Source: a virus. Taken from it: a stretch of 64,000 bases of DNA. Shown piece by piece: positions 7,190 through 41,171 of the stretch. Under the pieces are notes generated by a model. That model was not told where the DNA came from. It saw only the letters and a program-made list of their open reading frames with translations, and searched no databases. A program made the position numbers and the translations under genes. Every line of letters begins with the position of its first letter. The stretch's first letter is position 1. The DNA lies in the IMG/VR virus record IMGVR_UViG_3300045988_139374, positions 192,001-256,000 of that record. The stretch is one strand, 5' to 3'.

Positions 7190-8743
7190 ATGGGGAATAC
7201 TCTTCATGAAGCCGGTAGTGATACTGTAGATACTATTGTTCAGATCGCTAAAGGACTTAGCAATGTTGCTACAAATAAAGTTGCTAATAAGAGTGAATAT
7301 TCTTATTCCTCTATTGCAAATGCAGCATCTAAGTTGATTGCTGTTTTTCCTGTTCTTACTAGTCGTACTGTAAGCTTCGATACTGCACGTATGACTTCTA
7401 AGTATATTGAACAAATTTCCTGTCAATTCTTCATGTTTGCTCTACAGCAAGCAAATATTAGTAATGCAAAAGATGGTATTACATATCTAAGACAATTTCA
7501 TCAAAACCTAAATATGGGCGATGATAATACAGATGCTGTTATTGCAGCTATGCAGTCTTGGATTGATGCATATACTAAGGGTACACAAGAAAGTACCACA
7601 TTTGCTGATGCTTTGAATAATGAAGTTCTTAGTGAAGCAATGGTAGATCCTTTTATGATGCAATCTGATGATGTTAAGATCAGTGCTTCTGATATGAGAG
7701 AGCTAATGCATGCTATGCAAGAGAGTGCAAATATTCAGTTCTATGATACTAAGCTGAATCCTCTTTCTATTGACGATTACGTTGTTAGAGAATTTGCTAG
7801 CGGTGACTATAGAGTCACTGTTTCTCCTTATATTCTAAATGAAGCTAAGGCTAATAAGAGGAAAGCAAATAATTCTTATAATGAAAATAAAGAGCAGCAT
7901 CGCCATGAAGAAGAGATGAATAAGATCTTGAATGATCGAATGAAGACTTATCAAAAGGCTCAGTCCGAAAGAGATAAGCAGGATGCTGAAAATGAAAAGC
8001 AGCAAAAAGAAGATCAGAAAAGTACAAGTAGAGACAATGATTGGCGAGATGCAAATAGAATGCATAATAATACTGCATTCCTAAAAGATCAAGATATTAA
8101 GAAGATGAATGATGCTCTTCCTTCTATTTTGATTGTTAAATTCTATCAGAAGAATAGTGACGGTGGAGTTTCTGGTGTTGCTACTGAATTCATTATTGGT
8201 GTTAAGTCTAAAGTTGTTCCTATTACTACTACAGAGATTCTTCGCCGTATTATGAATGATAATAAGGATGGTCAGAAATTCCTTAAGTTCATGAGAGTTA
8301 TTACTGGTGAGCTAAAAGCTTCTGATGTTCTTTTGGGATTGTCTCGTATTACTGACGATGTCAAGTCTTATAAGGTTAAGGGAGCTCGTGGTGATATTTG
8401 GACTCTACTGCAGAATCGTGCAGTAGCAGCCAAAGAACAAGTTCGCTCTGGTAAGCATAATGACTTTTCTGCTATCACTACAGTTCTGATTTCTCAGCAA
8501 GATGCTGATGAACTGTATCGTGAAGAGAACTTTGATATCAATGATCCCAAGAATGCTATTCACTTTATGCAATCCTATAATCTAATGGGATTTGCTATTG
8601 CTGATGATTCTAATGAAGTTCTTCATTTGCTACTAGACAATGGTAGTAAGAATTTTGAAGACATTTCTTATAGAATGCTTGAGAGAGAAACTCAAGATAG
8701 TACTTATAAGAAGCTAATCAATCTGATGGCAGCTTCTAAGTAA
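7190..8743 (+). CDS. hypothetical protein (517 aa), K/E/Q-rich central coiled-coil-like segment; possible virion internal protein
   Basis: ATG 7190 follows AAAAAGGAGG. The ORF-track start at 7094 lies inside the upstream terminator hairpin. AACA-N6-TA at 7142-7153. Confidence 0.85.
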   Translation: MGNTLHEAGSDTVDTIVQIAKGLSNVATNKVANKSEYSYSSIANAASKLIAVFPVLTSRTVSFDTARMTSKYIEQISCQFFMFALQQANISNAKDGITYLRQFHQNLNMGDDNTDAVIAAMQSWIDAYTKGTQESTTFADALNNEVLSEAMVDPFMMQSDDVKISASDMRELMHAMQESANIQFYDTKLNPLSIDDYVVREFASGDYRVTVSPYILNEAKANKRKANNSYNENKEQHRHEEEMNKILNDRMKTYQKAQSERDKQDAENEKQQKEDQKSTSRDNDWRDANRMHNNTAFLKDQDIKKMNDALPSILIVKFYQKNSDGGVSGVATEFIIGVKSKVVPITTTEILRRIMNDNKDGQKFLKFMRVITGELKASDVLLGLSRITDDVKSYKVKGARGDIWTLLQNRAVAAKEQVRSGKHNDFSAITTVLISQQDADELYREENFDINDPKNAIHFMQSYNLMGFAIADDSNEVLHLLLDNGSKNFEDISYRMLERETQDSTYKKLINLMAASK

Positions 8744-8763: not shown

Positions 8764-9915
8764 ATGATCACTAATGCTGACTATATGCAGATCGTAAGTG
8801 AAGCATATGATCTATCTGATCCTTATATTAAGAAGAAAGTTATCTTCTGTAATGAAGCAAAGCGTCAAGAAAATATTGAGAATATTGTTGGTAGACTTTA
8901 TACTCATATTAAGAATGACGTTACTGGAATTGATTTTGGTACTATTCCTAGATCTAAAGGAATTATTACTAAGATTGATAATTATAATGGCCTTATTGAT
9001 TGTATTAATAGCATTCATGATCTGGTTAAGAGCTATAATCAACCTACTAAAAGTGTAGATGAACTAACTACAGCTATTAATAATATTAAGAATAGAGAAA
9101 GAGTATTTACTAAGGCTTTTACTCTTAATATTGAATTCCCAATTATGCTATATAATATGACAGTAACTGCCATTGTAAGTGCTACTTCCCTATTGATGAG
9201 CTCTAGTGTAGAATTCATTAAGAATGGTCATGATTCTTTTACTACTTCTCTAGACAAGGTTGGCTATGTGAAATCTAAGGATCACCTTATGATTGAATAT
9301 GTAAGTCAATTCAATAGAAACTGTGCAAATGGTACTATTGATAAGCTTGTCAATAGTTGTATTAAGAATAATATTACTAATACTAATGAATCTACCATTG
9401 TAGATGCTCAGAACGTAAATAGTGTTAACGAGGGAATCTTTTGGAAAGATAATGATGATGGTACCAAGACTCCTACTGCAGCAACCGCAATTACTGGCGT
9501 AATTATGGGTGCTGGAGCTAAATATATAATTCCTGCTATTGCAAGTAGTCCTCTTGGTATTTTTATCACTGCTGTTATTGGTGCTGGTATTACAGCAGTT
9601 CTTTTCCTATTCTTGTTTAGAAAAGTTGCATTCTTTGTTCTTAAGACACGTATGGATATCTCTGATTGGTTTGAGATTCAAGCAAATTATCTTCAGATTA
9701 ATGCTGAAAATCTTAAGTATCGTGATGATCCTAAGGGTGATGACCATAAGAAGAAAGTCTATGATGCTCAGATGAAATGGGTTGATAGATTCAAGAAAAT
9801 TGCTAATAAACTAGCACTCACTGATTCTAAAGCAAGAAAAGAAACTAATGATAATGATAGAAACGAGTCACACCATTATGAAGATGATGAATCTGATAAT
9901 GGTGGATTATTCTAA
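8764..9915 (+). CDS. hypothetical membrane-associated protein (383 aa)
   Basis: AAAGGAGAG SD. Gly/Ala-rich hydrophobic stretch near the C-terminus (..ITGVIMGAGAKYIIPAIA..LGIFITAVIGAGITAVLFLFLF..) suggests two TM helices. Confidence 0.85.
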   Translation: MITNADYMQIVSEAYDLSDPYIKKKVIFCNEAKRQENIENIVGRLYTHIKNDVTGIDFGTIPRSKGIITKIDNYNGLIDCINSIHDLVKSYNQPTKSVDELTTAINNIKNRERVFTKAFTLNIEFPIMLYNMTVTAIVSATSLLMSSSVEFIKNGHDSFTTSLDKVGYVKSKDHLMIEYVSQFNRNCANGTIDKLVNSCIKNNITNTNESTIVDAQNVNSVNEGIFWKDNDDGTKTPTAATAITGVIMGAGAKYIIPAIASSPLGIFITAVIGAGITAVLFLFLFRKVAFFVLKTRMDISDWFEIQANYLQINAENLKYRDDPKGDDHKKKVYDAQMKWVDRFKKIANKLALTDSKARKETNDNDRNESHHYEDDESDNGGLF

Positions 9916-9933
9916 TTTATAAAATAAAAACTT

Positions 9934-9965
9934 GAGATAGATTCCAAAAGAATCTATCTCATTTC
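9934..9965 (+). terminator. intrinsic terminator (weak T-run)
   Basis: 11-bp stem GAGATAGATTC/GAATCTATCTC, then ATTTC. Confidence 0.55.
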
Positions 9966-9989
9966 ACAAAAAATAATCCCGATATAATC

Positions 9990-11610: not shown

Positions 11611-12525
11611 ATGATTGTTAATGTTATTAATGGTCAGAGCTCTGGTATCTCTGAGTCTACTGGGCCTAATGTGTTTGAAGGCATGAGCTTGGCTGAAGCA
11701 TGTGGTCAGCTGCAGGCTAACGTGTCTGATATTCTGAATGAGATGAATATGGGCATTCTGCTGAATGAGCATATGTATCTTCGTGAGAATGGTGAGGACA
11801 TCCAGTATGTGAATGAGGCAGATACTAAGCTGAAGGATCGTATTGGCGGTGCTATTGATAATATCATTAAGCAGGTTTCTCAACTGTGGGATAGACTCGT
11901 TATCTGGATTCAGGATCGAGTCGAAGATGCTCGTATGGCATTTGCTCGTGCTGGTATTGATAAGAAGAAGGCAGAAGCTGCTAAGAGTGGATCTGTTGAT
12001 AAGTGCCATGTGAAGTGGGTTGGTTCTGATAAAGTCGATAACCTCATTAAACTAATTAACGCTGGCGATGGTAACAATCTGGATGAGATTGATAAGAAAG
12101 ATTACAATATCTCTGATTGGACTGAGACTAAGGATAAGCTCACCTCTGGCGAGATCACTGATGCATATAATACTGTTTTTGATACGAATAGAACCGTTCT
12201 TGGTAAGGTTCGTGCCGCTAAGAAGACCGCTATTGATGAGCTGAATAAGCAGAAGAAGGCTGCTACTTCTAGCAATAGCGATGATAAGGCTGATCAGATT
12301 AAGAGCATCAATGCAAATTCTCGTAAGATCTCTAAGATCAGTTCCTTTGCAATGAAGGTTTATCATACTCACGTTGAAGGCAGTATTCAGGCTCTGAAGG
12401 CTGCTGTTAAGCCTGAGAAGGCTGCAAAGGCTGTTGATCGTGCTGCTAAGGTTGGCAAGAAGTCTGATAAGGAAGCAACTTCCGAGTCTGCTATCTTCAA
12501 TGACGATCGTTTCTTCAAGGCCTAA
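11611..12525 (+). CDS. paralogue 2 of the three-member family (304 aa), GC-richest copy
   Basis: AAAGGAGA SD. MIVNVING..MSLAEACGQLQANVSDILNEMNMGILLNE..VSQLWDRLVIWIQ aligns with paralogues 1 and 3. Codons such as CTG/GGC/GCT/CGT/AAG are preferred. Confidence 0.9.
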   Translation: MIVNVINGQSSGISESTGPNVFEGMSLAEACGQLQANVSDILNEMNMGILLNEHMYLRENGEDIQYVNEADTKLKDRIGGAIDNIIKQVSQLWDRLVIWIQDRVEDARMAFARAGIDKKKAEAAKSGSVDKCHVKWVGSDKVDNLIKLINAGDGNNLDEIDKKDYNISDWTETKDKLTSGEITDAYNTVFDTNRTVLGKVRAAKKTAIDELNKQKKAATSSNSDDKADQIKSINANSRKISKISSFAMKVYHTHVEGSIQALKAAVKPEKAAKAVDRAAKVGKKSDKEATSESAIFNDDRFFKA

Positions 12526-12583: not shown

Positions 12584-13447
12584 TTATGCATACTCATAAT
12601 CAGGTTCATTATATTTACTATCCCCACCATGGTTAATAATAGCTTTAAGAACTTTTGCACAAGATTTTAGATAATCTCTATATACAGAGATTTCTTCTTT
12701 ACATATTTGAGTAGCAACTTGCGCCATATGCTTAATTTCGCTATCATTGCTTGTAGTATTGTTTTCCTCTTCATTATAAAAAGGATCTATATTCTTCTGA
12801 TTTTTCATAGATTTAATATAATTATTTTTATTTTCTATAACCCCCGATACAAATTTAGATTTAGAATTAAAAATAATATTCCAAGCATTAATTCCAACTT
12901 GTTTCGTAATTTTATATTCATAATCTACACGTCTATATTTAGAAAAATATGTATGAATATCTTTATCTTTTAGATCAATATATTTATTCAATAGCCCATA
13001 GGATGCATTTTCTCTATTTCTTACTATTTTATCATACTGATCATCTGTTACAACAGTTCCTTTAATAGTAACAGTAAAATCTTCTTTCATATTATTAATT
13101 AGATTCCAAGATTTCTTTTTATCTATACCAATAGAAAGAAATTTCTTCATTACCATACTAGTGAAGTTTTGAATAAACTCAATAAACTTATCCCATAATT
13201 TAGATATTTGAGTAATGATCGATTCAATGATATTTTTAATTTTTGATCTATTTACATTATCTCCTTTATTGATAAACTCATCTTCACCATAGTGCCTAAT
13301 ATATGAACCACTGTCATCAACTTTTTCTTCATTCAATATAATATTTACATTTTCTGTAAACATATTAAATGCTTCATCTAATGTCATATTAGAGAAAGGA
13401 TTATTCAATTCAATTAAACTAGATTCACATAATACATTAATAACCAT
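12584..13447 (-). CDS. paralogue 3 of the three-member family (287 aa), most AT-rich copy
   Basis: AAGGAGG SD on the minus strand. MVINVLCES..MTLDEAFNMFTENVNIILNEE..ISKLWDKFIEFIQ aligns with paralogues 1 and 2. Convergent with 11611-12525 across a shared terminator. Confidence 0.85.
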   Translation of the reverse strand: MVINVLCESSLIELNNPFSNMTLDEAFNMFTENVNIILNEEKVDDSGSYIRHYGEDEFINKGDNVNRSKIKNIIESIITQISKLWDKFIEFIQNFTSMVMKKFLSIGIDKKKSWNLINNMKEDFTVTIKGTVVTDDQYDKIVRNRENASYGLLNKYIDLKDKDIHTYFSKYRRVDYEYKITKQVGINAWNIIFNSKSKFVSGVIENKNNYIKSMKNQKNIDPFYNEEENNTTSNDSEIKHMAQVATQICKEEISVYRDYLKSCAKVLKAIINHGGDSKYNEPDYEYA

Positions 13448-13648: not shown

Positions 13649-13879
13649 CTACAATACATACCTTCTAATGAGATACATCCATTTTTTCTGAACAGCATAA
13701 AATAATGTAGCATTCAAATTATTATAATCTCTAGCATATTCAAAATCAAAATCATATCCAATCATAGTTCCATCTATTTTATATGCATGGCCAGAGTCAT
13801 AGACACTACTACAATCATGAACTTTAGATGTATAAACATTAGTTATTTTCTTTATAGAATTATTATTAGAAGCGTCAGA
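13649..13879 (-). CDS. start-less box cassette C1 (type A-like, degenerate C-terminus, TAG stop)
   Basis: Box TGACGCTTCTA on minus at 13877-13867. The frame from TCT GAC GCT TCT gives SDASNNNSIKKITNVY..YKIDGTMIGYDF... No SD and no start at the box. The ORF-track Met at 13939 lies in the tail of the previous cassette. Confidence 0.45.
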   Translation of the reverse strand, partial: SDASNNNSIKKITNVYTSKVHDCSSVYDSGHAYKIDGTMIGYDFDFEYARDYNNLNATLFYAVQKKWMYLIRRYVL

Positions 13880-13883: not shown

Positions 13884-14117
13884 TTAAATATAGATGATGT
13901 TTGCATGACATGAAGTATTACCAGATAATGATGAACCATCGGAATAGTGATCCATATCTACGAATCTACAATATAATTTTCCATTATTTTGATAAATATA
14001 GTCTATATCACTGTATTTAATACGATCTAATATATCAAATCCTATCAATGTACCATTTAATGTATATCCATCTTTAGTAATATAAATATTACTAAGCTTT
14101 TTTATAGAAGCGTCATT
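13884..14117 (-). CDS. start-less box cassette C2 (type A, 77 codons)
   Basis: Box on minus at 14115-14105, with TAA 3 codons upstream in frame. Product NDASIKKLSNIYITKDGYTLNGTLIGFDIL..HANIIYI*. Not in the ORF track because it has no start codon. Confidence 0.5.
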   Translation of the reverse strand, partial: NDASIKKLSNIYITKDGYTLNGTLIGFDILDRIKYSDIDYIYQNNGKLYCRFVDMDHYSDGSSLSGNTSCHANIIYI

Positions 14118-14137
14118 AGTATTTTAAAAAGTATTTA

Positions 14138-14240: not shown

Positions 14241-14567
14241 ATGCTGACCGAAAAAAATATTAATGATGTGGCAACGTTGAGTGTTATTGGTAACGACAAC
14301 GGCAAAGGAATCAATCCGACCGTGATCGATTATAAAATAAACAATGGAGGGTATTACGCCCTCGCATTGGTAAAGCTAAATGATGCATATACCATTTTCA
14401 ACATTGCTGGAATGGTTGCCCCTAGCGGGATACAAGCTGAAAGAGTAGGCTTGTATGTATGCAATCCTGAATGGGATTGCATAATAGATATTGTTTCCAA
14501 GAGCGAATTAATTTCTGACGAGCAGACTGCTCGTCAGAAGTTTGAAGATTACTGCAAGCTTCTATAA
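14241..14567 (+). CDS. hypothetical protein (108 aa), GC-rich codons, behind promoter/hairpin element E1
   Basis: TAGGAGG SD and own terminator. The last codons AAG CTT CTA TAA overlap a 12-nt box-like sequence GCTTCTATAAAG. Confidence 0.85.
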   Translation: MLTEKNINDVATLSVIGNDNGKGINPTVIDYKINNGGYYALALVKLNDAYTIFNIAGMVAPSGIQAERVGLYVCNPEWDCIIDIVSKSELISDEQTARQKFEDYCKLL

Positions 14568-14569
14568 AG
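14558..14569 (+). repeat. box-like 12-mer GCTTCTATAAAG at the 3' end of gene 14241-14567
   Basis: Identical to box positions 5-16 of cassettes C11/C13/C2, but lacks the TGAC and is read in a different frame (CTT CTA TAA). Confidence 0.5.
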
Positions 14570-14574
14570 CAAAA

Positions 14575-14614
14575 TGTGAGTAAGAGATATCTCTTACTCA
14601 CATTTATTTTTTTT
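14575..14614 (+). terminator. intrinsic terminator
   Basis: 12-bp stem TGTGAGTAAGAG/CTCTTACTCACA followed by a T-run. The box of cassette C3 starts 10 nt later. Confidence 0.85.
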
Positions 14615-14621
14615 ATAATGA

Positions 14622-14879
14622 TTTGACGCTTCTATTAAGAGTACTGTAATCACAACACCTAGTGATTATTCATCTGTAGATTTTAAGCTTGGAATTCCAG
14701 TAGGCGTATTTCCATATTCATCTAGAGATATAAGCGTATATCAATTGTATGAAGTATATTATAGATATTATGATTCTACCATTATATCATTTGGAATTAG
14801 AAGTATTAATATTAAAAATAATGGAAATATAGAGTATTGTATAGGTCAGCAAATTTTAGTGTATTATATTCCAATTTGA
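14622..14879 (+). CDS. start-less box cassette C3 (85 codons)
   Basis: Box at 14624-14634, with TGA immediately upstream in frame (14619-14621). Product FDASIKSTVITTPSDYSSVDF..GQQILVYYIPI*. No in-frame ATG anywhere and no SD. Absent from the ORF track. Confidence 0.5.
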   Translation, partial: FDASIKSTVITTPSDYSSVDFKLGIPVGVFPYSSRDISVYQLYEVYYRYYDSTIISFGIRSINIKNNGNIEYCIGQQILVYYIPI

Positions 14880-15119
14880 AATATAAAAAATATTTAAAGT
14901 TAACCCTGCAATTCTTTTAAATTTAGTAAAATCATCACCAATAGCTTGACCAACGACTATTACATAATTATCGTTATTATTTTTATATTGCATTATAAAT
15001 TGGAATCCTTCGCTTAAATCATTATTACCAATAATAGTATTAATTAAAATTTTATCTAGTGATATTGTATATCCATTTATAGAACTAATAGCTGTCATCA
15101 TTTTAATAGAAGCGTCAGA
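14856..15119 (-). CDS. start-less box cassette C4 (87 codons), convergent with C3
   Basis: Box on minus at 15117-15107. Product SDASIKMMTAISSINGYTISLDK..LNIFYISNWNIIH*. The part of ORF-track entry 14856-15413 upstream of the box is antisense to gene 15147-15800. Confidence 0.5.
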   Translation of the reverse strand, partial: SDASIKMMTAISSINGYTISLDKILINTIIGNNDLSEGFQFIMQYKNNNDNYVIVVGQAIGDDFTKFKRIAGLTLNIFYISNWNIIH

Positions 15120-15146
15120 CTTATTTATAAAGGAGGTAAATTTATT

Positions 15147-15800
15147 ATGGGAATTATTATAAATGAAAAGTGTGTTACTTATAATAAAATTTATGATATT
15201 AAGAATACTAAAATAGATAAATATAAATTGGTTATCATTGGTGAAATACATGGATCTTCTATGATTGGGGTTTATGATAAACTTCTTAAATCTTCTCATT
15301 ATGATTACTTTCTTGCTGAATTTGCTTATGATGATAAAGCTCTTACTAGAGAAGATATTAAATATAAAATGGATCATGCTACTAATGGTGGAATGGGTCC
15401 GTGTGATTATCAATATAATTATTGGCTTTATGAATTAGCATATAAATATAATATTCCTTTGATTGGTATTGATAGAGGAGATACTAATAGTTTTAAATCT
15501 AGAGAAGAAGAATTTAAAACTAGAGAATCTATTATGATCAATACTATTCAACAATATTCAGGAAAAGGAAGATGCTTAGTGCAAATAGGAGATGCTCATG
15601 TAAGAAATATTCCTATTAGTAAAGAATATATTAAGCAATATAATTATGATGATGAATTCTACGAAGGAAATATTGATAATCAAACAGTATCTTTTGCAAG
15701 TCCAATATATGAAAAATATGTAAATGATCCAAATGCAATTATATTTAGAAATAAAAAAGAATATGAAGATGAACAAAAATTTTTAAAAGAAAATTCATAA
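15147..15800 (+). CDS. Tiki/ChaN/TraB-superfamily-like protein (217 aa)
   Basis: AAAGGAGG SD. Motifs LVIIGEIHGS and LVQIGDAHVRN resemble the paired GxxH motifs of the ChaN/TraB/Tiki fold (by eye). Confidence 0.8.
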   Translation: MGIIINEKCVTYNKIYDIKNTKIDKYKLVIIGEIHGSSMIGVYDKLLKSSHYDYFLAEFAYDDKALTREDIKYKMDHATNGGMGPCDYQYNYWLYELAYKYNIPLIGIDRGDTNSFKSREEEFKTRESIMINTIQQYSGKGRCLVQIGDAHVRNIPISKEYIKQYNYDDEFYEGNIDNQTVSFASPIYEKYVNDPNAIIFRNKKEYEDEQKFLKENS

Positions 15801-15802
15801 AG

Positions 15803-15843
15803 ATAGAGGTAGAGTATTTTTACTCTACCTCTATTATATTTTA
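15803..15843 (+). terminator. intrinsic terminator
   Basis: 14-bp stem ATAGAGGTAGAGTA/TACTCTACCTCTAT followed by a T/A-rich tail. Confidence 0.7.
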
Positions 15844-15860
15844 ATTATTGTACTAAATAA

Positions 15861-15908
15861 ATATATAATATAATAATGAGATAGAAGGAAGAAAGAGTAC
15901 TTCTATTG
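15861..15908 (+). promoter_or_regulatory. promoter-like block plus 5' hairpin, element E2 (subtype 2)
   Basis: ATATAATATAATAATGAGATAGAAG-GAAGAAAGAGTA-CTTCTATT. Same hairpin as E5 but a different upstream half, which is shared with E6. Confidence 0.5.
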
Positions 15909-16749: not shown

Positions 16750-16752
16750 TAT

Positions 16753-16796
16753 AAAAGGAGTGGGTTCCATTCGCCCACTCCTTTTATTTTTTTTTT
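16753..16796 (+). terminator. intrinsic terminator
   Basis: Stem AAAAGGAGTGGG/CCCACTCCTTTT followed by a long T-run. Cassette C5 follows. Confidence 0.85.
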
Positions 16797-16821: not shown

Positions 16822-17115
16822 TCTGACGCTTCTATTAAGTACATAGATATTTCATTACATCTAAAGAGTAGTATATCATATGAACATAACATATCATCAA
16901 ATCCTATTATATCTATTATAGGAGTTTTTACAAATATTAGTAATTGTATTCCAATACTTAATAATCTATCTTTTGAAGAAAAAATTGATTCTAATGATAA
17001 CTTAGTCGAATTCCAAGTAATTGACTATAATTTATATACTATAAGTAGTGGAAAATTAATATTAACAAAAGTATCTGGATATGTTACTATATTTTATATT
17101 GAACCTTCCAATTAA
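16822..17115 (+). CDS. start-less box cassette C5 (97 codons)
   Basis: Box at 16824-16834, with TAA immediately upstream in frame (16819-16821). Product SDASIKYIDISLHLK..VSGYVTIFYIEPSN*. Contains no ATG, GTG or TTG codon in frame at all. Absent from the ORF track. Confidence 0.5.
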   Translation, partial: SDASIKYIDISLHLKSSISYEHNISSNPIISIIGVFTNISNCIPILNNLSFEEKIDSNDNLVEFQVIDYNLYTISSGKLILTKVSGYVTIFYIEPSN

Positions 17116-17119: not shown

Positions 17120-17626
17120 TCTGACGCTTCTAAGAATTTTGGAAATGGAAGTTTTATTAAATCCATTACTTATGAAGGATATTATACAATTAGTGATAAA
17201 TATATAAACCATATGAGTTCAGATACTTGTATTAGAACTACTGTATCTAAAATGTATGATGTTGTGTTATTCGCTGAATTAGAAACTACAAACAATACTT
17301 TATTAGCTGAGCAAAATCCATATGTTAAAGTATTTCAAAATATTATCAAAGGTTCATTTGCTGGATATGTATTTATGAATTTAATGCCTACATCTTGGAA
17401 GATTTTATATAATAATACTTCTAGCAATGATTTTATTGGGCCATATGTTGAATATGATCATTGTCCTACAAGTGGTGTAGTAGCTAGAAGAAATAGATTA
17501 TCCATAGAAAGATACTGTGCAAAGTATACTAACAATATGGATTATCAATTATTAGCTAGACAAGGCATTAGATATGATGTATATGGTCTAATGCTTAGAG
17601 ATGAAATTGCTAATCTATTTAGATAA
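17120..17626 (+). CDS. start-less box cassette C6 (168 codons; includes ORF-track 17213-17626)
   Basis: Box at 17122-17132, with TAA immediately upstream in frame (17117-17119). Reads SDASKNFGNGSFIKSITYEGYYTISDKYINH then MSSDTC... The internal ATG at 17213 has no SD. Confidence 0.5.
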   Translation, partial: SDASKNFGNGSFIKSITYEGYYTISDKYINHMSSDTCIRTTVSKMYDVVLFAELETTNNTLLAEQNPYVKVFQNIIKGSFAGYVFMNLMPTSWKILYNNTSSNDFIGPYVEYDHCPTSGVVARRNRLSIERYCAKYTNNMDYQLLARQGIRYDVYGLMLRDEIANLFR

Positions 17627-17627: not shown

Positions 17628-17881
17628 TATGACGCTTCTATCAAGCGAACTGTTGTTACTCTTAAATATAATAATACCGAAGTAGGATGTAAATTTACAT
17701 TAGGAGCTCCAGTTGGAGGATATATACTTACAGAAATTAATAGCTGGATTGTAATACGTATGGATAAAAATATGAATATTCTATATTTGGAATTTATGTT
17801 CGTACTTGGTTAGGTGACGGATTAATTGAAAAAATTCAATATATAGATAATTATTATAAAGCTACTATATTTTACATTTAA
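17628..17881 (+). pseudogene. box cassette C7, frame broken at an A5 run
   Basis: Box at 17630-17640. Reads YDASIKRTVVTLKYNNTEVG..IRMDK, and after the A5 run (17766-17770) the family-typical end ..YVRTWLGDGLIEKIQYIDNYYKATIFYI* continues in the +1 frame to 17881. Confidence 0.4.
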
Positions 17882-17987: not shown

Positions 17988-20444
17988 ATGGGACTTAATA
18001 TGAACTATCATTTTTTCCTTGAAGGATATCAGTCTCATTGCCATATTCCTGATTATATTAGGGCTAATAATTCTCAGATTCCAGTAGATGAATCCATTCT
18101 GAAGGCTACACTAGAATTTGCTAATACTTGTAGAAATTCTGTTTCCACTATTACTTCTGTTTCTGAAGCAGATGCTGGTACTGTTCAATTTGAGCAAATT
18201 TATTCTTCTCTATCCACTGCTATTAGATCTGTAGATTCTGTAAAAGCTACTATGCTTAAGACAATAGAAGATGCAAGAATGAATGTAGATAGATCTAGAG
18301 ATCATAAAAACGATCAAATTGAATCTCAATATAATATTGCAGAGAGAGTAAAGTATCTAGATAAAGCTATTCATTTTGCTAGCACATCTAATCCTGATGA
18401 TCTAATGTATAATTCTACTGCTAAGCTTTCTGCAGATATTACAGTTAAAGATCAATCATTCCCCAATCTGAATGCTATTAAAGATATTCTTCATGGAAAG
18501 TCGATTGCTATTCCTGATAATATCACTGCTTCTTCTGATTATACTACTGGTATGATCATGGATAAAGATTCTGTTCTTTATACTCTGCTTGGTAAGTATT
18601 ATTCTCCTGTAGAATCTGCTAGTATTATGCAATTTGCAGTGAACTTCACTAATGATTTTATGGATAATACTAAAATAGATCATAAGATTGAAGTACAGGA
18701 TTATCTAACCGCATTCTCTAATATCAATGCAGTAGATGATATGATCAAGTATCTAGATAATCTTAAAGCAACTACAGAGTCTGCTTTTAATGATTGTCTA
18801 AAAACTATGTATGATTACTGTGATCATCTTAAGGGAGAAGCTTCTACTAATTATAAAGAAAATTATGGTACTGTAATTAGTGCATTGATTAACAATGTAC
18901 AGAATATTATCTGTGCTGCTAATATTGTCACTACTAGAAAAGTAAATATTATTTCTAATCTATATGGTGCAAATGGAGATAGTTGGAAGACTATTGAATT
19001 TGCCCATTCTCTGATTGGTAAATACTATGATAAGATCATTACTCCTAATGTAATGGCACAAGATGCTGGAAAAGATATTCCTAATAATGCTATTGTATTC
19101 AATGGAGCAGATCAAGTTCAAGAATTTTATAATATTCAGAGCCAGTCTAATATTCTAGATATGCTTATTGAGAATGCTTATAATGAATATATGTATGACG
19201 ATGCTCTAGAAAAGGTTTTGCAAGAAGCTACTGCTTTGCATGAAAATGATAATAACGGTGGAAATGCTACTCCTGCAAATGGTGGACAATCTGTAGGCTC
19301 TGGTGGTGATCAAGGATCTACTGGACAAGCTGGTCAGCAAGCTGCTCCTGCACAACAGCAAAATGCTAATAATGGCCAGCAACAGCAACAATCCGGAACT
19401 CAGAATTCTGCCAATAATACAAATGATAAGACTAAGAAGAATAAGTTTGGTATTCTTAATTGGCTGAAGCAAATGATGGGCAGACTCGGTGAAGCTATCA
19501 ACAAGTTTAAACTTCGTGTTGAGGAAATGATTACTAAAGGCCCTGATAAAAAGTTCTGGGCTGATAATAAAGATAAGATTAGAAATATTGATATTTCTGG
19601 TACTGAAGTTAATCAGTGGTATCAATATAAGTTTGATATCTTTAAGAATTCTACTTATATCAAATTCAATCCTACTGATAATACTCTTAAGTCTGATACT
19701 GATCTACAAGATGCTATTCTTTCTAAGATTAATGGCGGTACAAAACCCAATATTAATACTGATGAAAAGGATACATTTGCTACCAAGATCAATAAAGTAT
19801 ATCAGGGTGAATATATTAATATTGAAAATGGTAATGGCAAGACTCTAGGAGATATTCAATACAATAAGGATGCTGCATTTACCTTTGTTGATCAATTTAT
19901 CAATAAAGGATTTAATAGTGAATCTCTAGGCTCTATTACTGAAGATTATCGTAAGATTGATGAAGACTATAAAGATGCTGCTAAGAGATATGATGAATAT
20001 GCTAATCAGTTTAAGCAGACTCAATCTCAGAATCAAGCATCTAATAATTCTGGTGAACCTAAATCTAATGGTAACACTTCTGGAAACTCTGGCAATCAAA
20101 GTGGTAATACACAACAGCAGCAAGCAAATGCTGAATCTGCATTCTCTGATTTTTCCTCTGGATTTAATCTGGCTGAATGCCTTGGATTGATGAACTGTGG
20201 AAACGCTATTAATGAAGCAGATATTAAGCCTGATCAATCTACTGCACAATCTGCAGATCAAGCTAACGGTACTATTGATAATGCTGAGCTTGATAAGATG
20301 ATTCATCGTTGCTTCTCTATGAATATTTCTGCTATTACTGCTAAACTTACTAATGCTATGGCAGCATATAAACAGAATATGCAACTCTTTAAAGCAGTTA
20401 CTAAAGCATCTGCTGTAAAGAATAAGGATAATAATAAAAAGTAA
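17988..20444 (+). CDS. hypothetical protein (818 aa) with two Q/N/G/S-rich low-complexity linkers
   Basis: AAAGGAG SD. Low-complexity stretches NGGNATPANGGQSVGSGGDQGSTGQAGQQAAPAQQQNANNGQQQQQSG and SQNQASNNSGEPKSNGNTSGNSGNQSGNTQQQQ. Confidence 0.9.
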   Translation: MGLNMNYHFFLEGYQSHCHIPDYIRANNSQIPVDESILKATLEFANTCRNSVSTITSVSEADAGTVQFEQIYSSLSTAIRSVDSVKATMLKTIEDARMNVDRSRDHKNDQIESQYNIAERVKYLDKAIHFASTSNPDDLMYNSTAKLSADITVKDQSFPNLNAIKDILHGKSIAIPDNITASSDYTTGMIMDKDSVLYTLLGKYYSPVESASIMQFAVNFTNDFMDNTKIDHKIEVQDYLTAFSNINAVDDMIKYLDNLKATTESAFNDCLKTMYDYCDHLKGEASTNYKENYGTVISALINNVQNIICAANIVTTRKVNIISNLYGANGDSWKTIEFAHSLIGKYYDKIITPNVMAQDAGKDIPNNAIVFNGADQVQEFYNIQSQSNILDMLIENAYNEYMYDDALEKVLQEATALHENDNNGGNATPANGGQSVGSGGDQGSTGQAGQQAAPAQQQNANNGQQQQQSGTQNSANNTNDKTKKNKFGILNWLKQMMGRLGEAINKFKLRVEEMITKGPDKKFWADNKDKIRNIDISGTEVNQWYQYKFDIFKNSTYIKFNPTDNTLKSDTDLQDAILSKINGGTKPNINTDEKDTFATKINKVYQGEYINIENGNGKTLGDIQYNKDAAFTFVDQFINKGFNSESLGSITEDYRKIDEDYKDAAKRYDEYANQFKQTQSQNQASNNSGEPKSNGNTSGNSGNQSGNTQQQQANAESAFSDFSSGFNLAECLGLMNCGNAINEADIKPDQSTAQSADQANGTIDNAELDKMIHRCFSMNISAITAKLTNAMAAYKQNMQLFKAVTKASAVKNKDNNKK

Positions 20445-36401: not shown

Positions 36402-36764
36402 ATGTCTATTAGTAATGAGGAGTGGGAAAGATTTTGTGAAGGCATTGATAGTGGCAGTGCTCATCACGTTTACGAAATTGAAAAGCATGATTATAATATG
36501 ATTTTTACTCGTAAGGGTAAAAAATATTCTGCCATGCTTCATCGTATGATTAATCATGGCAATGCAAAATCTGGCAAGACCATGCGCCAGATTTATAGGT
36601 ACTGCTATCAGTACTTGTTTGATATAGGCTTGACGCAATTTTATCCTCCTATCTTTAACCCTAGAGCGAGATACATCGTTGAGTTAGGCGATGACAATTA
36701 TTTATATATTAAGAATGTAACAAAGGATAAGAGGTATAGGACATTGTCCAATAATGAGAAATAA
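36402..36764 (+). CDS. hypothetical protein (120 aa), behind promoter/hairpin element E4
   Basis: TTGGAGG SD. The terminator at 36770-36811 is followed directly by the cassette array. Confidence 0.85.
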   Translation: MSISNEEWERFCEGIDSGSAHHVYEIEKHDYNMIFTRKGKKYSAMLHRMINHGNAKSGKTMRQIYRYCYQYLFDIGLTQFYPPIFNPRARYIVELGDDNYLYIKNVTKDKRYRTLSNNEK

Positions 36765-36815: not shown

Positions 36816-37059
36816 TCTGACGCTTCTACTAATATTAAAAAACTTGATAATGTATATATATATATATTCAAAAGGATATGAATTAGCAGGTACAATGATA
36901 GGATGTAATATACTAGACAGGCCAAGTATAGCCAAGAATGATTTTGTCTACATGGCATATCAAATTGAAGGTATAGTATATGCCGTATATGGACCATATA
37001 AGTCTTCTTCGATTAACTTTACAGTGTATGGTACTAATGCAAATATACTATACATTTAA
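36816..37059 (+). pseudogene. box cassette C8 (type A), frame interrupted inside a (TA)7 microsatellite
   Basis: Box at 36818-36828, with TAA immediately upstream in frame. Reads SDASTNIKKLDNVYIYI, and then the family sequence ..SKGYELAGTMIGCNIL..ANILYI* continues in the +1 frame. One extra TA unit would restore a single frame. Confidence 0.45.
36853..36866 (+). repeat. (TA)7 dinucleotide microsatellite inside cassette C8
   Basis: TATATATATATATA. The frame switch of C8 maps inside it. Confidence 0.9.
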
Positions 37060-37395
37060 TACACTGACGCTTCTAATAAAATTTTTAAAATGGATATTAA
37101 GTCTGATACAATAATATTCGATGGATTATTTGATTATAAAAGAATATTTCTTTGGCCAGATTGCGATTTTGTTATATTATCAATTTATGATGATAATGCT
37201 GTTATACGGCCTTTTAATGTTAATAATAATCATAAGGTACTTCTTTGGTATTCTTGGTATCATGATCATTATATGAATAATGGTGAAGATGCAATAGGCA
37301 CTGCAATAGATCTTTTATTTTCACAAAATTATGAAAATTATTCTCATACATTTCAAGAAATCAATACAATTATTTATTATAAGAACAAGAATTAA
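37060..37395 (+). CDS. start-less box cassette C9 (type B, 111 codons; includes ORF-track 37090-37395)
   Basis: Box at 37065-37075, with TAA two codons upstream in frame. Product YTDASNKIFKMDIKSD..VLLWYSWYHDHY..FQEINTIIYYKNKN*. The Met at 37090 is not conserved in paralogue C10 and has no SD. Confidence 0.5.
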   Translation, partial: YTDASNKIFKMDIKSDTIIFDGLFDYKRIFLWPDCDFVILSIYDDNAVIRPFNVNNNHKVLLWYSWYHDHYMNNGEDAIGTAIDLLFSQNYENYSHTFQEINTIIYYKNKN

Positions 37396-37401
37396 GATTA
37401 G

Positions 37402-37707
37402 TATGACGCTTCTAATAAAATCTATAAAACGGAAATTAGTTGTGGATATAAATCATTTAAGCAAGTAGTAGATTATATAAAGATAGGCGATATAAGTGAT
37501 TTTGTTATTCCAATATCAATATATAAAAAATCTGCAGATATACGTCCTATGAGTAATTCTACTGGAGCAGATGCACTTCTTTGGTATTCTTGGTATTATA
37601 CTGAAAATAAAACTAGTATATTTCTTTTATATACTACCAAAGCTACTTCTACGAATTATTCATTTCAAGAACTTAATACGATTGTATATTATATTCTACC
37701 AATCTGA
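37402..37707 (+). CDS. start-less box cassette C10 (type B, 101 codons)
   Basis: Box at 37404-37414, with TAG immediately upstream in frame. Product YDASNKIYKTEISCGYKSF..ALLWYSWYYTENK..FQELNTIVYYILPI. Its stop is the TGA of the next box. Absent from the ORF track. Confidence 0.5.
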   Translation, partial: YDASNKIYKTEISCGYKSFKQVVDYIKIGDISDFVIPISIYKKSADIRPMSNSTGADALLWYSWYYTENKTSIFLLYTTKATSTNYSFQELNTIVYYILPI

Positions 37708-37948
37708 CGCTTCTATAAAGAAGCTTAATAATATTTATATTGCTTATGATGTTGGGTATGAATTAAATGGTACAATGATAGGATATAATATATTAACAGT
37801 TCCAAATAATTTTGTCATCAATGACAAATATAATTATATTGGAGCGTTTCAGTATAAAGATAAAATATATGCTATATATGGATACACTGTGATCAACGGA
37901 TTTACTCTTACCAGATATAATAGCTATGCTAATATAGTATATATTTAA
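37703..37948 (+). CDS. start-less box cassette C11 (type A, 81 codons)
   Basis: Box at 37705-37715. Product SDASIKKLNNIYIAYDVGYELNGTMIGYNIL..YANIVYI*. The part of ORF-track entry 37571-37948 upstream of the box overlaps C10 in another frame. Confidence 0.5.
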   Translation, partial: SDASIKKLNNIYIAYDVGYELNGTMIGYNILTVPNNFVINDKYNYIGAFQYKDKIYAIYGYTVINGFTLTRYNSYANIVYI

Positions 37949-37949
37949 G

Positions 37950-38240
37950 TCTAATGACGCTTCTATTAAACATCTTAGTTTTGCCTGTGATACTGTTACA
38001 TTTGTTGCTATGATAGGTTTTAGAAAGATATATAATACATATAATAGTATTATATATCCGATATCTATATATACTACAGATCGTATACTTCCTGCTACTG
38101 ATGGAGAAGACATAATTGTCCCAATATTTGCATGGTATAATTATAGTAACAATACTAGCATTTATCTATGCTTATTTCAGACAGAGCTGCATACAACTGT
38201 AATGAATAATTTTACAACACATGTTTATTATATAAAATAA
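37950..38240 (+). CDS. start-less box cassette C12 (type B, 96 codons; includes ORF-track 38010-38240)
   Basis: Box at 37955-37965. Product SNDASIKHLSFACDTVTFVAMIGFRK..PIFAWYNYSNNTS..THVYYIK*. No SD. Confidence 0.5.
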   Translation, partial: SNDASIKHLSFACDTVTFVAMIGFRKIYNTYNSIIYPISIYTTDRILPATDGEDIIVPIFAWYNYSNNTSIYLCLFQTELHTTVMNNFTTHVYYIK

Positions 38241-38244
38241 TTAA

Positions 38245-38469
38245 TCTAATGACGCTTCTATAAAAAAGCTTAGTAATATTTATATTAATACTTTTAATGG
38301 ATATCCATTAAATGGCACAATGATAGGATGCGATATATTAGATAGTCCAAATTGGATGTTTAATTATATTACAGCATATCAATATAAAGGTAAAATATAT
38401 GTTACATCATGGGCATCTGGCAGCGATTTTCAAAGTTTTAATAGCCATGCAAATATTGTATATATTTAA
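38245..38469 (+). CDS. start-less box cassette C13 (type A, 74 codons)
   Basis: Box at 38250-38260, with TAA at 38242-38244 in frame. Product SNDASIKKLSNIYINTFNGYPLNGTMIGCDIL..HANIVYI*. Absent from the ORF track. Confidence 0.5.
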   Translation, partial: SNDASIKKLSNIYINTFNGYPLNGTMIGCDILDSPNWMFNYITAYQYKGKIYVTSWASGSDFQSFNSHANIVYI

Positions 38470-38636: not shown

Positions 38637-39383
38637 TTAGTTATCTCGTTCTATTCTCTTAGCATGCTTTTCAAGCGTATAAGGATTATAGTAATTTTCA
38701 TCAATTAGATTACTATGAATATTAGCACCAATTAGATATACGTTCATAGCATTCTTAGGAATACTATCTGTCTTTTCAGAATCAATGTCATCAAAGCTAA
38801 CTTCACCTTTGACATTGATAGTATTATAAGCTTCAGCTTTAGCTTTCATAGCAGCAGCTTTAACACGAGCATACTCAGCAGTAGTGTTCTCTAGATTCAA
38901 CGCCATCGCACCCTCGAATTCTTTATTTGACTCTAGGCCACCTTTATCGGTACTCTGAAGGCGTCCTGTTAGTTTCATATCGCGTTTAGCAATTTCAATA
39001 GCAGTATTATTCTTCTTAGTAAGCATCTGCTTTAGACGCTTAATATTTAGATACCCTACTAGACATTCTTTACTCTCGATAGGTTTGCCAGTTACAGGAT
39101 CTGTAGCTAGATAAGGAAGCTTAACTTTTTCCATTAGAGGCTTATTAAGAACTTTAAAAGCCTTAAATATATCAGGCATCTTAGGCTCGTTATCAAAAGG
39201 AGCCACATGGTATCTAAAAGGAAGTCTACCAGAAATTAGCTTAGTAAATTCTGCATCAGACATATCTGCAAATAGCTTCTGATAATACTCAGTATTAGCA
39301 CCAGTAGGATCAATTGCAGAAAATGTTTTATAAATAAGCTCTTCACATTTTTGACGAGTTTCAGGAGTTATAGTTTTAGGCAT
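38637..39383 (-). CDS. hypothetical protein (248 aa)
   Basis: AAGGAG SD on minus. Downstream of 39397-40593 in the same operon. Bidirectional terminator at 38593-38636. Confidence 0.85.
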   Translation of the reverse strand: MPKTITPETRQKCEELIYKTFSAIDPTGANTEYYQKLFADMSDAEFTKLISGRLPFRYHVAPFDNEPKMPDIFKAFKVLNKPLMEKVKLPYLATDPVTGKPIESKECLVGYLNIKRLKQMLTKKNNTAIEIAKRDMKLTGRLQSTDKGGLESNKEFEGAMALNLENTTAEYARVKAAAMKAKAEAYNTINVKGEVSFDDIDSEKTDSIPKNAMNVYLIGANIHSNLIDENYYNPYTLEKHAKRIERDN

Positions 39384-39396
39384 AATTCATTACTCC

Positions 39397-40593: not shown

Positions 40594-40616
40594 CTTCTAT
40601 CTCCTCCTTATAATTT

Positions 40617-40628
40617 TATAAGGATGTT
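40617..40628 (-). promoter_or_regulatory. AACA-N6-TA motif (late promoter candidate)
   Basis: Minus strand reads AACA TCCTTA TA. Lies 24 nt upstream of ATG 40593. The same 12-mer occurs at 46457 and 59590. Confidence 0.6.
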
Positions 40629-40640
40629 TTGGTAAGTCAA

Positions 40641-40747: not shown

Positions 40748-40766
40748 TATTTATTGAGGTAATCTT

Positions 40767-41165: not shown

Positions 41166-41171
41166 TAAAAC

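What the first reader, a model, noticed from the sequence alone, without database searches (positions are those of the whole stretch)
14622..15119. Convergent cassette pair flanked by inverted boxes has the topology of an invertible shufflon segment
- C3 (box 14624-14634, plus) and C4 (box 15117-15107, minus) face each other. Their 3' ends overlap by 24 nt (14856-14879).
- The 496-bp segment is therefore bounded by the conserved box in inverted orientation, with a start-less ORF reading inward from each end.
- This is the arrangement of the R64 shufflon segments A/A', B/B', C/C' and of the p15B Min cassettes, where the crossover repeat lies inside the coding sequence.
- The C4 box is only 29 nt from the ATG of the divergent gene 15147-15800, and that spacer is occupied by that gene's SD. 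C4 therefore has no room for its own promoter plus RBS.
- Caveat: no constant 5' gene part abuts either box here, so the analogy is incomplete.
Basis: partly seen in the sequence, partly recalled or inferred. Interest (0 to 1): 0.75.

Follow-up and report, generated by a model that had tools for sequence, protein, structure and literature searches.

The report
Silent tail-fibre tip cassette pair
The segment holds two start-less gene endings that a giant human-gut phage keeps in reserve; related phages join such endings, by DNA recombination at an 11-letter box, to the front half of a tail-fibre gene, which probably changes which bacteria the phage can attach to.

Summary
TGACGCTTCTA lies at 14624-14634 (+) and 15107-15117 (-), and a start-less ORF reads inward from each copy. 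The window has 13 exact copies against 0.01 expected by chance. Every copy heads a start-less ORF beginning xDAS(I/N)K.

In related gut jumbo-phage contigs, a 136-137-aa tail-fibre-like N-terminal part with its own SD and ATG is fused in frame, exactly at this box, to one such ORF. N-terminal parts that are 100% identical carry 2-4 unrelated cassettes. Homology between relatives breaks at the boxes.

This part belongs to a discrete 834-944-bp "expression module" (M) that runs from a variant box to a normal box. M is found in at least six different contexts. These include either side of the convergent pair that occupies the C3/C4 position, and window box 38250 in a contig 98-99% identical to the window. 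The crossover lies within the 7-bp core TGACGCT. A Xer-like tyrosine recombinase lies 3-7 kb from cassettes in two relatives.

C3 and C4 are therefore silent alternative fibre tips of a shufflon-like system. The window itself holds neither M nor a recombinase. The C3/C4 segment had the same orientation in all seven places examined. No within-sample switching was shown. Verdict: a new variant of a known kind.

The parts
14624..14634 (+). Box at the head of C3: 7-bp core TGACGCT plus TCTA. Putative crossover site.
   Evidence: Exact 11-mer. Core and right side are invariant or nearly so in 64 cassette-heading sites.
14625..14879 (+). C3, a silent start-less cassette (84 aa, DASIKSTVITT...LVYYIPI).
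   Evidence: In-frame stop one codon upstream, and no start codon until 14745. Conserved at 97-100% in L124-L126. No homolog among the fused proteins.
15107..15117 (-). Box at the head of C4.
   Evidence: Exact reverse complement of the C3 box.
14856..15116 (-). C4, a silent start-less cassette (86 aa, DASIKMMTAISS...).
   Evidence: 54% identical to the cassette of the fused fibre protein P0019. dN/dS is 0.40 against its homolog L111 4747+.
14572..14605 (+). Hairpin plus T-run terminator of the upstream 108-aa gene, 18 nt before the C3 box.
15147..15800 (+). Ordinary 217-aa gene with SD and ATG, forming the right flank of the pair. In L116-118 the expression module sits between its homolog and the adjacent box.
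13649..13877 (-). Box (13867-13877) plus a silent cassette (DASNNNSIKK...).
   Evidence: Homology with L124 ends at 13866, inside the box, and a different cassette follows.
13884..14115 (-). Box (14105-14115) plus a silent cassette (DASIKKLSNIYITKDGY...ANIIYI).
   Evidence: 58-64% identical to cassettes of fused proteins P0026, P0031 and P0038.
16824..17115 (+). Box plus a silent cassette (96 aa), preceded by the terminator at 16751-16787.
   Evidence: Replaced by a different cassette in L121/L122.
17122..17626 (+). Box plus a 167-aa box-headed ORF (DASKNFGNGS...). It has an internal ATG at 17213. It is conserved in relatives but was never seen fused.
17630..17813 (+). Box plus a cassette with an aberrant C-terminus, probably decaying.
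   Evidence: L121 has the intact 82-aa form. dN/dS is 1.44.
36818..37059 (+). Box plus a cassette that is frameshifted in a (TA)n tract.
   Evidence: It is intact in L127, which is 99.96% identical to the window.
37065..37395 (+). Box plus a silent cassette (109 aa).
37404..37707 (+). Box plus a silent cassette (100 aa). Its stop codon is the TGA of the next box.
37705..37948 (+). Box plus a silent cassette (80 aa).
37955..38240 (+). Box plus a silent cassette (94 aa).
38250..38469 (+). Box plus a silent cassette (72 aa). This is the empty site of the expression module: L128 carries the module inserted exactly here, fused in frame to this cassette.
36402..36764 (+). 120-aa gene forming the left flank of cluster 2. 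It is a homolog of the gene upstream of the long fibre gene in L110.

Best explanation
C3 and C4 are two of at least 13 silent cassettes in this window. Each encodes an alternative C-terminal tip of a short tail-fibre (appendage) protein of a human-gut jumbo phage of about 260 kb.

A cassette has no promoter, SD or start codon. It is expressed only when DNA recombination at the box places it behind a constant part. The box is the core TGACGCT plus a right side TCTAnnAA, encoding D-A-S at the end of a predicted helix. The constant part has its own regulatory region, SD and ATG, and encodes 136-137 aa ending in ...SMNQTLTSLN.

The constant part sits in a discrete 834-944-bp module (M). M starts at a variant box (TGACGCTATTA, heading a 5-aa null cassette) and ends at a normal box. 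It also contains an internal inverted box.

Shown:
- In-frame fusions exactly at the box.
- Identical constant parts carrying unrelated cassettes.
- Homology breaks at the boxes.
- M present or absent at window box 38250 between near-identical phages.
- M in at least six different contexts and in both orientations.

Inferred:
- The exchange is catalysed by the phage's Xer-like tyrosine recombinase.
- Both inversion (between inverted boxes) and excision/integration (between direct boxes) occur.
- Switching is frequent enough to act as host-range bet-hedging.

In the window's own genome M lies outside these 64 kb, or has been lost. C3 and C4 are therefore silent here.
For: Cassettes and boxes:
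- 13 exact boxes against 0.01 expected.
- Each heads an ORF with no start. In most, an in-frame stop lies 1-6 codons upstream.
- In nine loci, 64 of 75 distinct TGACGCT sites are followed by at least 45 open codons, although the DNA is about 30% GC.

Fusions:
- L111 9340-9969 has SD and ATG, then a 136-aa N-terminal part, fused at the box to a cassette.
- The N-terminal part has 82 homologs, about 60 of them fused at SLN|DAS to different cassettes of 69-108 aa.
- Eight groups with 100% identical N-terminal parts carry 2-4 unrelated cassettes each.

Breakpoints:
- They lie at boxes in L115 and L116 against L111, and in L121 and L124 against the window.
- L128 is 98-99% identical to the window. 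It has M inserted at box 38250, and the junctions show a crossover inside TGACGCT.
- The same M (96% identical) sits in unrelated flanks in L137.
- M lies on either side of the pair homologous in position to C3/C4 (L148, L116-118).
- Fusions to the null cassettes exist (P0059, P0077, P0076).

Fibre nature:
- Weak PHROG tail-fibre hits for the homologous N-terminus.
- HxH motifs in the long paralog.
- One cassette type carries GGTMTG and a sub-threshold Peptidase_G2 IMC match.
- The model shows a helix ending at the junction, followed by an all-beta tip (low confidence).

Recombinase:
- PF00589 at E=5e-38. It lies 7 kb from cassettes in L110 and 3 kb from M in L119.
- Homologs occur on contigs up to 283 kb.

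Selection: cassette dN/dS is mostly 0.26-0.7.
Against: - No constant part, no variant box and no recombinase was found in the 64-kb window.
- C3 has no homolog among the fused proteins.
- The C3/C4 segment was never seen inverted, in seven places of the window's lineage.
- No two alternative junctions were found in one sample. All comparisons are between consensus assemblies from different samples.
- The link between the recombinase and the boxes rests on co-occurrence in two contigs. A Xer-like enzyme in a large phage could instead resolve genome multimers.
- L139 carries the recombinase but no box within 17 kb.
- The fibre assignment rests on weak or sub-threshold matches.
Confidence: 0.8

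Rival explanations
1. This is a strict R64-type shufflon. Segments bounded by inverted boxes, such as 14622-15119, flip in place next to a fixed constant gene part. Inversion is the only reaction.
For: - C3 and C4 are bounded by inverted boxes.
- The box has the sfx-like layout of variable left side, 7-bp core and conserved right side.
- M and the cassettes occur in both orientations relative to conserved flanks.
- The L116 arrangement can be derived from L111 by two inversions between boxes (inference).
Against: - The six boxes of cluster 2, and all five in L119, are in direct orientation with M.
- In L128 M is a clean insertion with collinear flanks on both sides, flanked by direct boxes.
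- M is not at a fixed place.
- The segment was never seen inverted.
Confidence: 0.12
2. This is evolutionary mosaicism only. The cassettes and the module were shuffled by rare illegitimate or homologous recombination between co-infecting phages. The box is conserved only because it encodes part of the fibre neck, and there is no programmed switching.
For: - All the variation seen is between assemblies from different samples.
- Homologous recombination between similar cassettes does occur, as in the L130 deletion.
- Some cassettes are decaying.
Against: - Silent cassettes keep the box at nucleotide level, including GAC, GCT and TCT at synonymous positions, while everything else diverges to below 30% identity.
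- Breakpoints fall within 7-15 bp of identity, which is too short for homologous recombination.
- Dozens of start-less ORFs stay open, mostly with dN/dS below 1.
- Identical N-terminal parts carry unrelated cassettes.
- Fusions to null cassettes should be counter-selected if fixed, yet they exist.
Confidence: 0.12
3. The box is an expression signal, such as a phage-RNAP promoter, an initially transcribed sequence or an unconventional initiation site. Each cassette would then be an independent small gene.
For: - Many boxes follow terminators and a TATAAT-like ATAATC.
- An NTG overlaps every box.
- The phage encodes its own RNAP subunits.
Against: - The NTG is out of frame with the conserved ORF.
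- There is no SD and no start codon.
- The same box lies in frame in the middle of about 60 full-length genes.
- A stand-alone tip would lack the part that is conserved across all fused proteins.
Confidence: 0.04
4. Joining happens at the RNA level, by trans-splicing, template switching or ribosomal bypass, between a constant transcript and cassette transcripts. The DNA is not rearranged.
For: A conserved junction sequence at the 5' end of start-less ORFs would also fit a splice-acceptor or landing site.
Against: - The fusions are present in the DNA of many assemblies.
- Cassettes lie on both strands and up to 20 kb apart.
Confidence: 0.02

Closest known systems
Rin shufflon of Bifidobacterium prophages (PMC6109161)
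   Same: - It is phage-encoded.
- A constant 5' part of a receptor-binding protein gene combines with several dissimilar start-less 3' cassettes.
- Each cassette is headed by a short asymmetric 11-bp repeat.
- A tyrosine-family recombinase is predicted.
- Its variants were likewise found by comparing genomes.
   Different: - Rin has 5 cassettes in one compact locus, with rin and the constant part fixed at its two ends. Here there are 13 or more cassettes in at least two clusters 19 kb apart, and at least four cluster locations across relatives.
- Here the constant part is itself in a box-flanked module found at many positions.
- Here whole arrays stand in direct orientation.
- The phage is a jumbo phage, not a small temperate one.
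- The repeat sequence is unrelated (TTCCCTAACCC against TGACGCTTCTA).
R64 / IncI shufflon (Rci tyrosine recombinase, sfx sites, pilV)
   Same: - The crossover site lies inside the coding sequence.
- Convergent cassette pairs are bounded by inverted sites.
- The site has a 7-bp core with a conserved right side and a variable left side (PMC11852207).
   Different: - R64 is a plasmid pilus adhesin system, not a phage fibre.
- Rci is adjacent to its shufflon and is reported to do inversions only. Here direct-repeat products (module insertion or absence) are seen.
- Here the recombinase is Xer-like and is not adjacent.
Gin/Cin/Min invertible tail-fibre segments (Mu, P1, p15B)
   Same: - They switch phage tail-fibre C-termini by site-specific DNA rearrangement at a crossover inside the gene.
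- Min has multiple segments.
   Different: - Those systems use serine invertases, 26-bp sites and an enhancer (my own knowledge). No serine recombinase was found here.
- Their cassettes are accompanied by assembly genes.
- Their constant part is fixed.
Mycoplasma surface-antigen switches (M. pulmonis vsa/HvsR, M. agalactiae vpma/Xer1). This comparison rests on my own knowledge and was not checked here.
   Same: - There are many silent genes lacking a 5' end and one expression site.
- Recombination occurs at a short box near the 5' end.
- The recombinase is Xer-like, and for Xer1 both inversions and excisions have been reported.
   Different: - These are cellular lipoprotein genes, with a single locus and a fixed expression site.
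- In vpma the box lies in the 5' UTR or leader rather than deep inside the coding sequence.
Integrons
   Same: - They hold arrays of promoter-less cassettes, mostly in one orientation.
- A tyrosine recombinase carries out excision and integration.
- Only the cassette next to the expression platform is expressed.
   Different: - Integron cassettes are complete genes with attC hairpin sites, and no protein fusion is made.
- In integrons the platform is fixed and the cassettes move. Here the platform appears to move.
- No IntI or attC features were found (one search is below the integron-integrase cut-offs).

Membership tests
Shufflon-type multiple recombination system (tyrosine recombinase; R64, Rin) | Multiple copies of one short asymmetric crossover site, with a conserved core and one conserved arm. 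| tested here: met
   13 exact copies in the window. In 64 sites the core TGACGCT is invariant, the right side TCTAnnAA is at least 91% conserved at six positions, and the left side is variable.
Shufflon-type multiple recombination system (tyrosine recombinase; R64, Rin) | Sites in inverted orientation bounding segments that carry start-less alternative 3' gene parts. | tested here: met
   C3/C4 at 14624(+) and 15117(-). Homologous pairs exist in L111, L116 and L148.
Shufflon-type multiple recombination system (tyrosine recombinase; R64, Rin) | A constant 5' gene part ending in the same site, giving in-frame fusions. | tested here: inconclusive
   Absent from the window (tblastn at E<=10). Present in relatives, including one 98-99% identical to the window (L128), and in about 60 fused proteins.
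Shufflon-type multiple recombination system (tyrosine recombinase; R64, Rin) | A dedicated tyrosine recombinase encoded by the same element. | tested here: inconclusive
   None in the window. A Xer-like tyrosine recombinase sits on the same contigs as boxes in L110 and L119. Its activity on the box is untested.
Shufflon-type multiple recombination system (tyrosine recombinase; R64, Rin) | Coexisting rearranged forms within one clonal population. | not testable with these tools
   Only consensus assemblies were available. Proteins with identical N-terminal parts came from different samples. Contig ends at 38275 are explained by a 42-nt internal repeat.
Serine-invertase fibre switches (Gin/Cin/Min) | A serine recombinase gene next to the invertible segment. 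| tested here: not met
   No resolvase or invertase domain was found in the ORFs next to both clusters or in the large ORFs of the window. Not every small ORF of the window was scanned.
Serine-invertase fibre switches (Gin/Cin/Min) | Crossover sites of about 26 bp with dyad symmetry around a 2-bp core. | tested here: not met
   The box is asymmetric and its left side is not conserved.
Integron | IntI-type integrase, an attI site and a Pc promoter at a fixed platform. | tested here: not met
   The recombinase scores far below the integron-integrase cut-offs (98-104 bits against 265). The platform (M) is not fixed.
Integron | attC sites (imperfect inverted repeats) at the 3' end of each complete gene cassette. 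| tested here: not met
   The cassettes are start-less gene parts headed by an 11-bp box. Only a few bases separate a stop codon from the next box.
Phage tail fibre / receptor-binding protein | Sequence or fold similarity to known fibre proteins. | tested here: inconclusive
   PHROG tail-fibre families match at E about 1e-5 for the homologous N-terminus in L110. Peptidase_G2 IMC matches at 23.7 bits against a cut-off of 25 for one cassette type. There is no PDB sequence match. The model has pLDDT 64.

The most novel reading that the evidence does not exclude
The mobile element is not the cassette but the expression platform. A module of about 0.84-0.94 kb carries a regulatory region, an SD and the constant N-terminal coding part. 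It excises between its two direct boxes, possibly as a circle whose junction would read constant-part|DAITK*, as in P0059 and P0077. It then re-integrates at any of the dozens of boxes scattered over several loci of a 260-kb phage genome, and so activates whichever silent fibre tip lies downstream. This would be an 'inside-out integron' that builds protein fusions.
Probability: 0.35. Interest if true: 0.8.

Novelty: new variant of a known kind. Interest (0 to 1): 0.66.

Why it matters
If the switching is active, these uncultured gut jumbo phages carry by far the largest known repertoire of interchangeable receptor-binding tips. There are 13 in this window and about a dozen per 20-kb locus in relatives, against 2 in Mu/P1 and 5-7 in Rin, Min and R64.

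That would give a single phage lineage a built-in way to hop between host surface types. It bears on phage-host dynamics in the human gut and on host prediction from metagenomes. It also affects assembly and annotation: gene callers currently emit truncated or spuriously extended ORFs for every cassette.

The short, asymmetric 7+8-bp site, together with a small Xer-like enzyme, would also be a candidate multiplex shuffling tool. Interest in that use is documented for Rci/sfx (PMC11852207).

Tried and rejected
- Box as a sigma-70, MotA-like or phage promoter. Promoter-like hits are not enriched (45 against 43 expected), and the box lies in frame inside full-length genes.
- Initiation at the overlapping ATG/CTG/TTG followed by a frameshift, or prfB-like +1 shifting at the TGA of the box. 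The NTG frame is short and not conserved. Upstream frames are inconsistent between copies.
- Exact 15-mer scan of IMG/VR. It gave only single, chance-level matches per locus.
- Megablast against INPHARED found nothing. tblastn of the fused fibre found only a weak partial hit to Roseburia phage Jekyll.
- Search for within-sample heterogeneity. P0019 and P0020 have identical N-terminal parts but come from different samples. Three Logan contigs end exactly 25 nt into box 38250. This is explained by a 42-nt repeat shared by the heads of cassettes 38250(+) and 14115(-), so it is not evidence of heterogeneity.
- Search for the predicted circular-module junction in JGI metagenomes and IMG/VR found no match. 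The ENA contig of P0059 could not be fetched because the look-ups were exhausted.
- Cluster-member listing gave no sample accessions.
- Structure prediction of a fused protein had low confidence (pLDDT 64). No fold search was run on it.
- The position of the module in the window's own genome could not be found.

Full report
**1. The observation**

The sequence of 14300-15900 shows TGACGCTTCTA at 14624-14634 on the + strand and its exact reverse complement at 15107-15117. The identity runs for 15 nt. An ORF in the frame GAC-GCT-TCT (D-A-S) reads inward from each box. C3 ends with the TGA at 14877-14879 and C4 with the TAA at 14858-14856, so their ends overlap by 24 nt.

C3 has an in-frame TGA one codon before the box and no start codon until a TTG at 14745. 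C4 has an ATG six codons after the box but no SD. The 29 nt between its box and the ATG of the divergent 217-aa gene hold that gene's AAAGGAGG. A hairpin plus T-run terminator (14572-14605) ends 18 nt before the C3 box.

The exact 11-mer occurs 13 times in the window, against a mean of 0.01 in shuffles. The copies form two clusters:
- 13.6-17.8 kb, with orientations - - + - + + +.
- 36.8-38.5 kb, with six copies, all +.

Every copy heads an ORF of 60-167 codons that begins xDAS(I/N)K. In most, an in-frame stop lies 1-6 codons upstream. The one exception is a cassette broken by a (TA)n tract. The products are diverse, sharing little beyond the DAS..IK head and an N-I-x-Y-I tail.

**2. What the window is**

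The window is AT-rich, at 27-41% GC. It has strong SDs and intrinsic terminators. PHROG matches include an RNA-polymerase beta subunit and a helicase, with almost no Pfam hits. Identical or related DNA lies on human-gut metagenome contigs of 128-283 kb and on an IMG/VR genome of 259 kb. It is part of an uncultured gut jumbo phage. No deposited phage matches it.

**3. The missing constant part exists in relatives**

A profile of the cassettes found only metagenomic homologs, all with the DAS head. Their contigs carry the same exact box at the head of 11-12 start-less ORFs per 20 kb, on both strands.

In L111, one box lies in the middle of a normal gene (9340-9969, with SD and ATG). The gene encodes a 136-aa N-terminal part...GKAAANHSHKVAQLP...SALIYSMNQTLTSLN, followed by DASIKKL... 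and a cassette.

A search with that N-terminal part returned 82 proteins. About 60 are the N-terminal part (82-99% identical) fused at SLN|DAS to a different cassette of 69-108 aa. Eight groups have 100% identical N-terminal parts but 2-4 unrelated cassettes. More distant sister systems join at SLN|DA(L/W/M/Y/I).

The evidence for a fibre nature is modest:
- The homologous N-terminus of a long paralog with repeated HTH motifs in L110 hits PHROG tail-fibre families at E about 1e-5.
- One cassette type begins DAYLPIAGGTMTG and has a sub-threshold Peptidase_G2 intramolecular-chaperone match.
- A low-confidence model (pLDDT 64) puts a helix ending exactly at the junction, followed by an all-beta domain.

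**4. Recombination happens at the box**

Homology blocks between relatives break at boxes:
- L115 947-1245 equals L111 7083-6784 in reverse, running from box to box.
- L124 matches the window down to 13866, inside box 13877-13867, and then carries another cassette.
- L121 swaps the cassettes between the terminator at 16.8 kb and box 17630.

The constant part belongs to a discrete module (M). M runs from a variant box (TGACGCTATTA, heading the null cassette DAITK*) to a normal box. It also contains a terminator hairpin, an internal inverted box with a second null cassette, four copies of a TGTGAAGAC...TTAAGA motif, a promoter region and an SD.

L128 is 98-99% identical to window 31.3-40.8 kb and has M inserted exactly at window box 38250. 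The three junctions read:
- Window empty site: ...ttaatctaaTGACGCT|TCTAtaaaaaag
- L128 left junction: ...ttaatctaaTGACGCT|ATTAcgaag
- L128 right junction: ...cgctaaaTGACGCT|TCTAtaaaaaag

The crossover therefore lies within the 7-bp core. The same M (96% identical) lies in unrelated flanks in L137. It also lies at the cluster-2 position in L149, and in front of a 282-292-aa cassette in L151, L154 and L157. That cassette's silent homolog lies next to the recombinase in L110.

Fusions to both null cassettes exist (P0059, P0077, P0076).

**5. The C3/C4 pair**

The convergent pair next to the 217/219-aa gene is conserved in position in L111 (4747+/5225-), where it is silent. In L116, L117 and L118, M is fused to its - cassette and sits between that box and the 219-aa gene. 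This is the 29-nt spacer position of the window. In L148, M is fused to its + cassette, which is the C4-type sequence.

So a constant part abuts either box of this pair in relatives. C4-type cassettes occur in both positions relative to the flanking gene.

In the window's own lineage, the pair has the same orientation in all seven places examined. No M, variant box or recombinase lies in the window. C3 has no homolog among the fused proteins.

**6. Mechanism**

The box layout is a variable left side, an invariant TGACGCT core and a conserved TCTAnnAA right side. This mirrors the sfx site of the R64 shufflon as described in PMC11852207.

A tyrosine recombinase (PF00589, E=5e-38; Xer-like by NCBIfam, below all equivalog cut-offs) lies 7 kb from cassettes in L110 and 3 kb from M in L119. 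Many homologs lie on jumbo-sized contigs. That it acts on the box is inference.

Inversion alone cannot explain the data, for three reasons:
- Cluster 2 and all of the L119 boxes are in direct orientation.
- M is flanked by direct boxes.
- The L128 insertion leaves both flanks collinear.

Both orientations of M and of the cassettes relative to conserved flanks do occur. The L116 arrangement can be derived from L111 either by two inversions between boxes or by excision and integration of M.

Silent cassettes stay open, in 64 of 75 sites, and mostly show dN/dS of 0.26-0.7. This implies that they are used. A few are decaying, namely window 17630 and the (TA)n frameshift at 36852-36867.

**7. Comparison and novelty**

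The closest described system is the Rin shufflon of Bifidobacterium prophages. It has a constant RBP part, five start-less cassettes each headed by an asymmetric 11-bp repeat, and a predicted tyrosine invertase (PMC6109161). Tail fibres are a known target of programmed inversions (PMC9881135).

The present system differs in four ways:
- Scale: 13 cassettes in 64 kb, with at least four cluster locations across relatives.
- Arrays stand in direct orientation.
- The expression module is itself box-flanked and found at many positions.
- It sits in a jumbo phage.

It is a new variant of a known kind.

**8. Limits**

All evidence for exchange comes from comparing consensus assemblies of different samples. 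No coexisting forms were shown. Apparent contig breaks at box 38250 are explained by a 42-nt internal repeat. The predicted circular junction was not found in the collections that could be scanned. The contig of P0059 could not be fetched; its 1085-bp length equals a 944-bp module plus a 141-nt assembler overlap.

Noticed in passing
window 36852-36867: A (TA)n tract inside the first cassette of cluster 2 is 4 nt longer than in L127, which is 99.96% identical to the window. The extra 4 nt break the reading frame. L131 has yet another tract length that stays in frame. The tract is hypervariable.
   Followed up: partly
window 17630-17813: This cassette ends in ...LYLEFMFVLG instead of the family's ...IFYI tail. 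The close relative L121 has an intact 82-aa version, and dN/dS is 1.44. It is probably a decaying cassette.
   Followed up: partly
window 17122-17626: A box-headed ORF of 167 aa (DASKNFGNGS...) has an internal ATG at 17213. It is conserved in L110, L111 and L003, sometimes with the variant box TGACGCTACTA. It was never seen fused to the constant part. It may be a different kind of cargo, for example an assembly factor.
   Followed up: no
L110 about 8650-8670 (minus strand); P0084-P0093: A second, long fibre gene shares the N-terminal domain. It is split by a G-run (CNGGGG...) whose length differs between assemblies. This is either a sequencing artefact or slipped-strand phase variation.
   Followed up: no
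L128 7090-7290 (inside the expression module): Four copies of TGTGAAGAC(N5-7)TTAAGA-like motifs lie upstream of the SD of the constant part. They are candidate binding sites for a regulator or for recombinase accessory (arm-type) binding.
   Followed up: no
window 38246-38287 and 14078-14119 (reverse complement): A 42-nt identical stretch covers the box and the first 31 nt of two cassettes in different clusters. It explains why three Logan contigs end at 38275.
   Followed up: yes
L130 against window 36982-38261: A close relative lacks five cassettes of cluster 2. The deletion joins two similar cassettes within their bodies, so it arose by homologous recombination and not at a box.
   Followed up: partly
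P0059 (ENA contig of 1085 bp), P0077: The constant part is fused to the 5-aa null cassette DAITK*. This is the junction expected for an excised circular module. 944 bp plus a 141-nt assembler overlap equals 1085 bp. The contig could not be fetched.
   Followed up: partly
window 11611-12525 (+) and 12584-13447 (-): Convergent paralogous genes (26% identity, E=4e-18) of unknown function lie directly left of cluster 1.
   Followed up: no
window 17988-20444: An 818-aa protein with long Q/N/G-rich low-complexity stretches lies immediately right of cluster 1. It is conserved in that position in L111, L115 and L116.
   Followed up: no
L139 8001-8966 against window 38637-42513: In a more distant relative, the Xer-like recombinase lies between gyrase genes on one side and an amidase on the other, about 2 kb from homologs of the window genes just right of cluster 2. 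No box lies within those 17 kb.
   Followed up: partly
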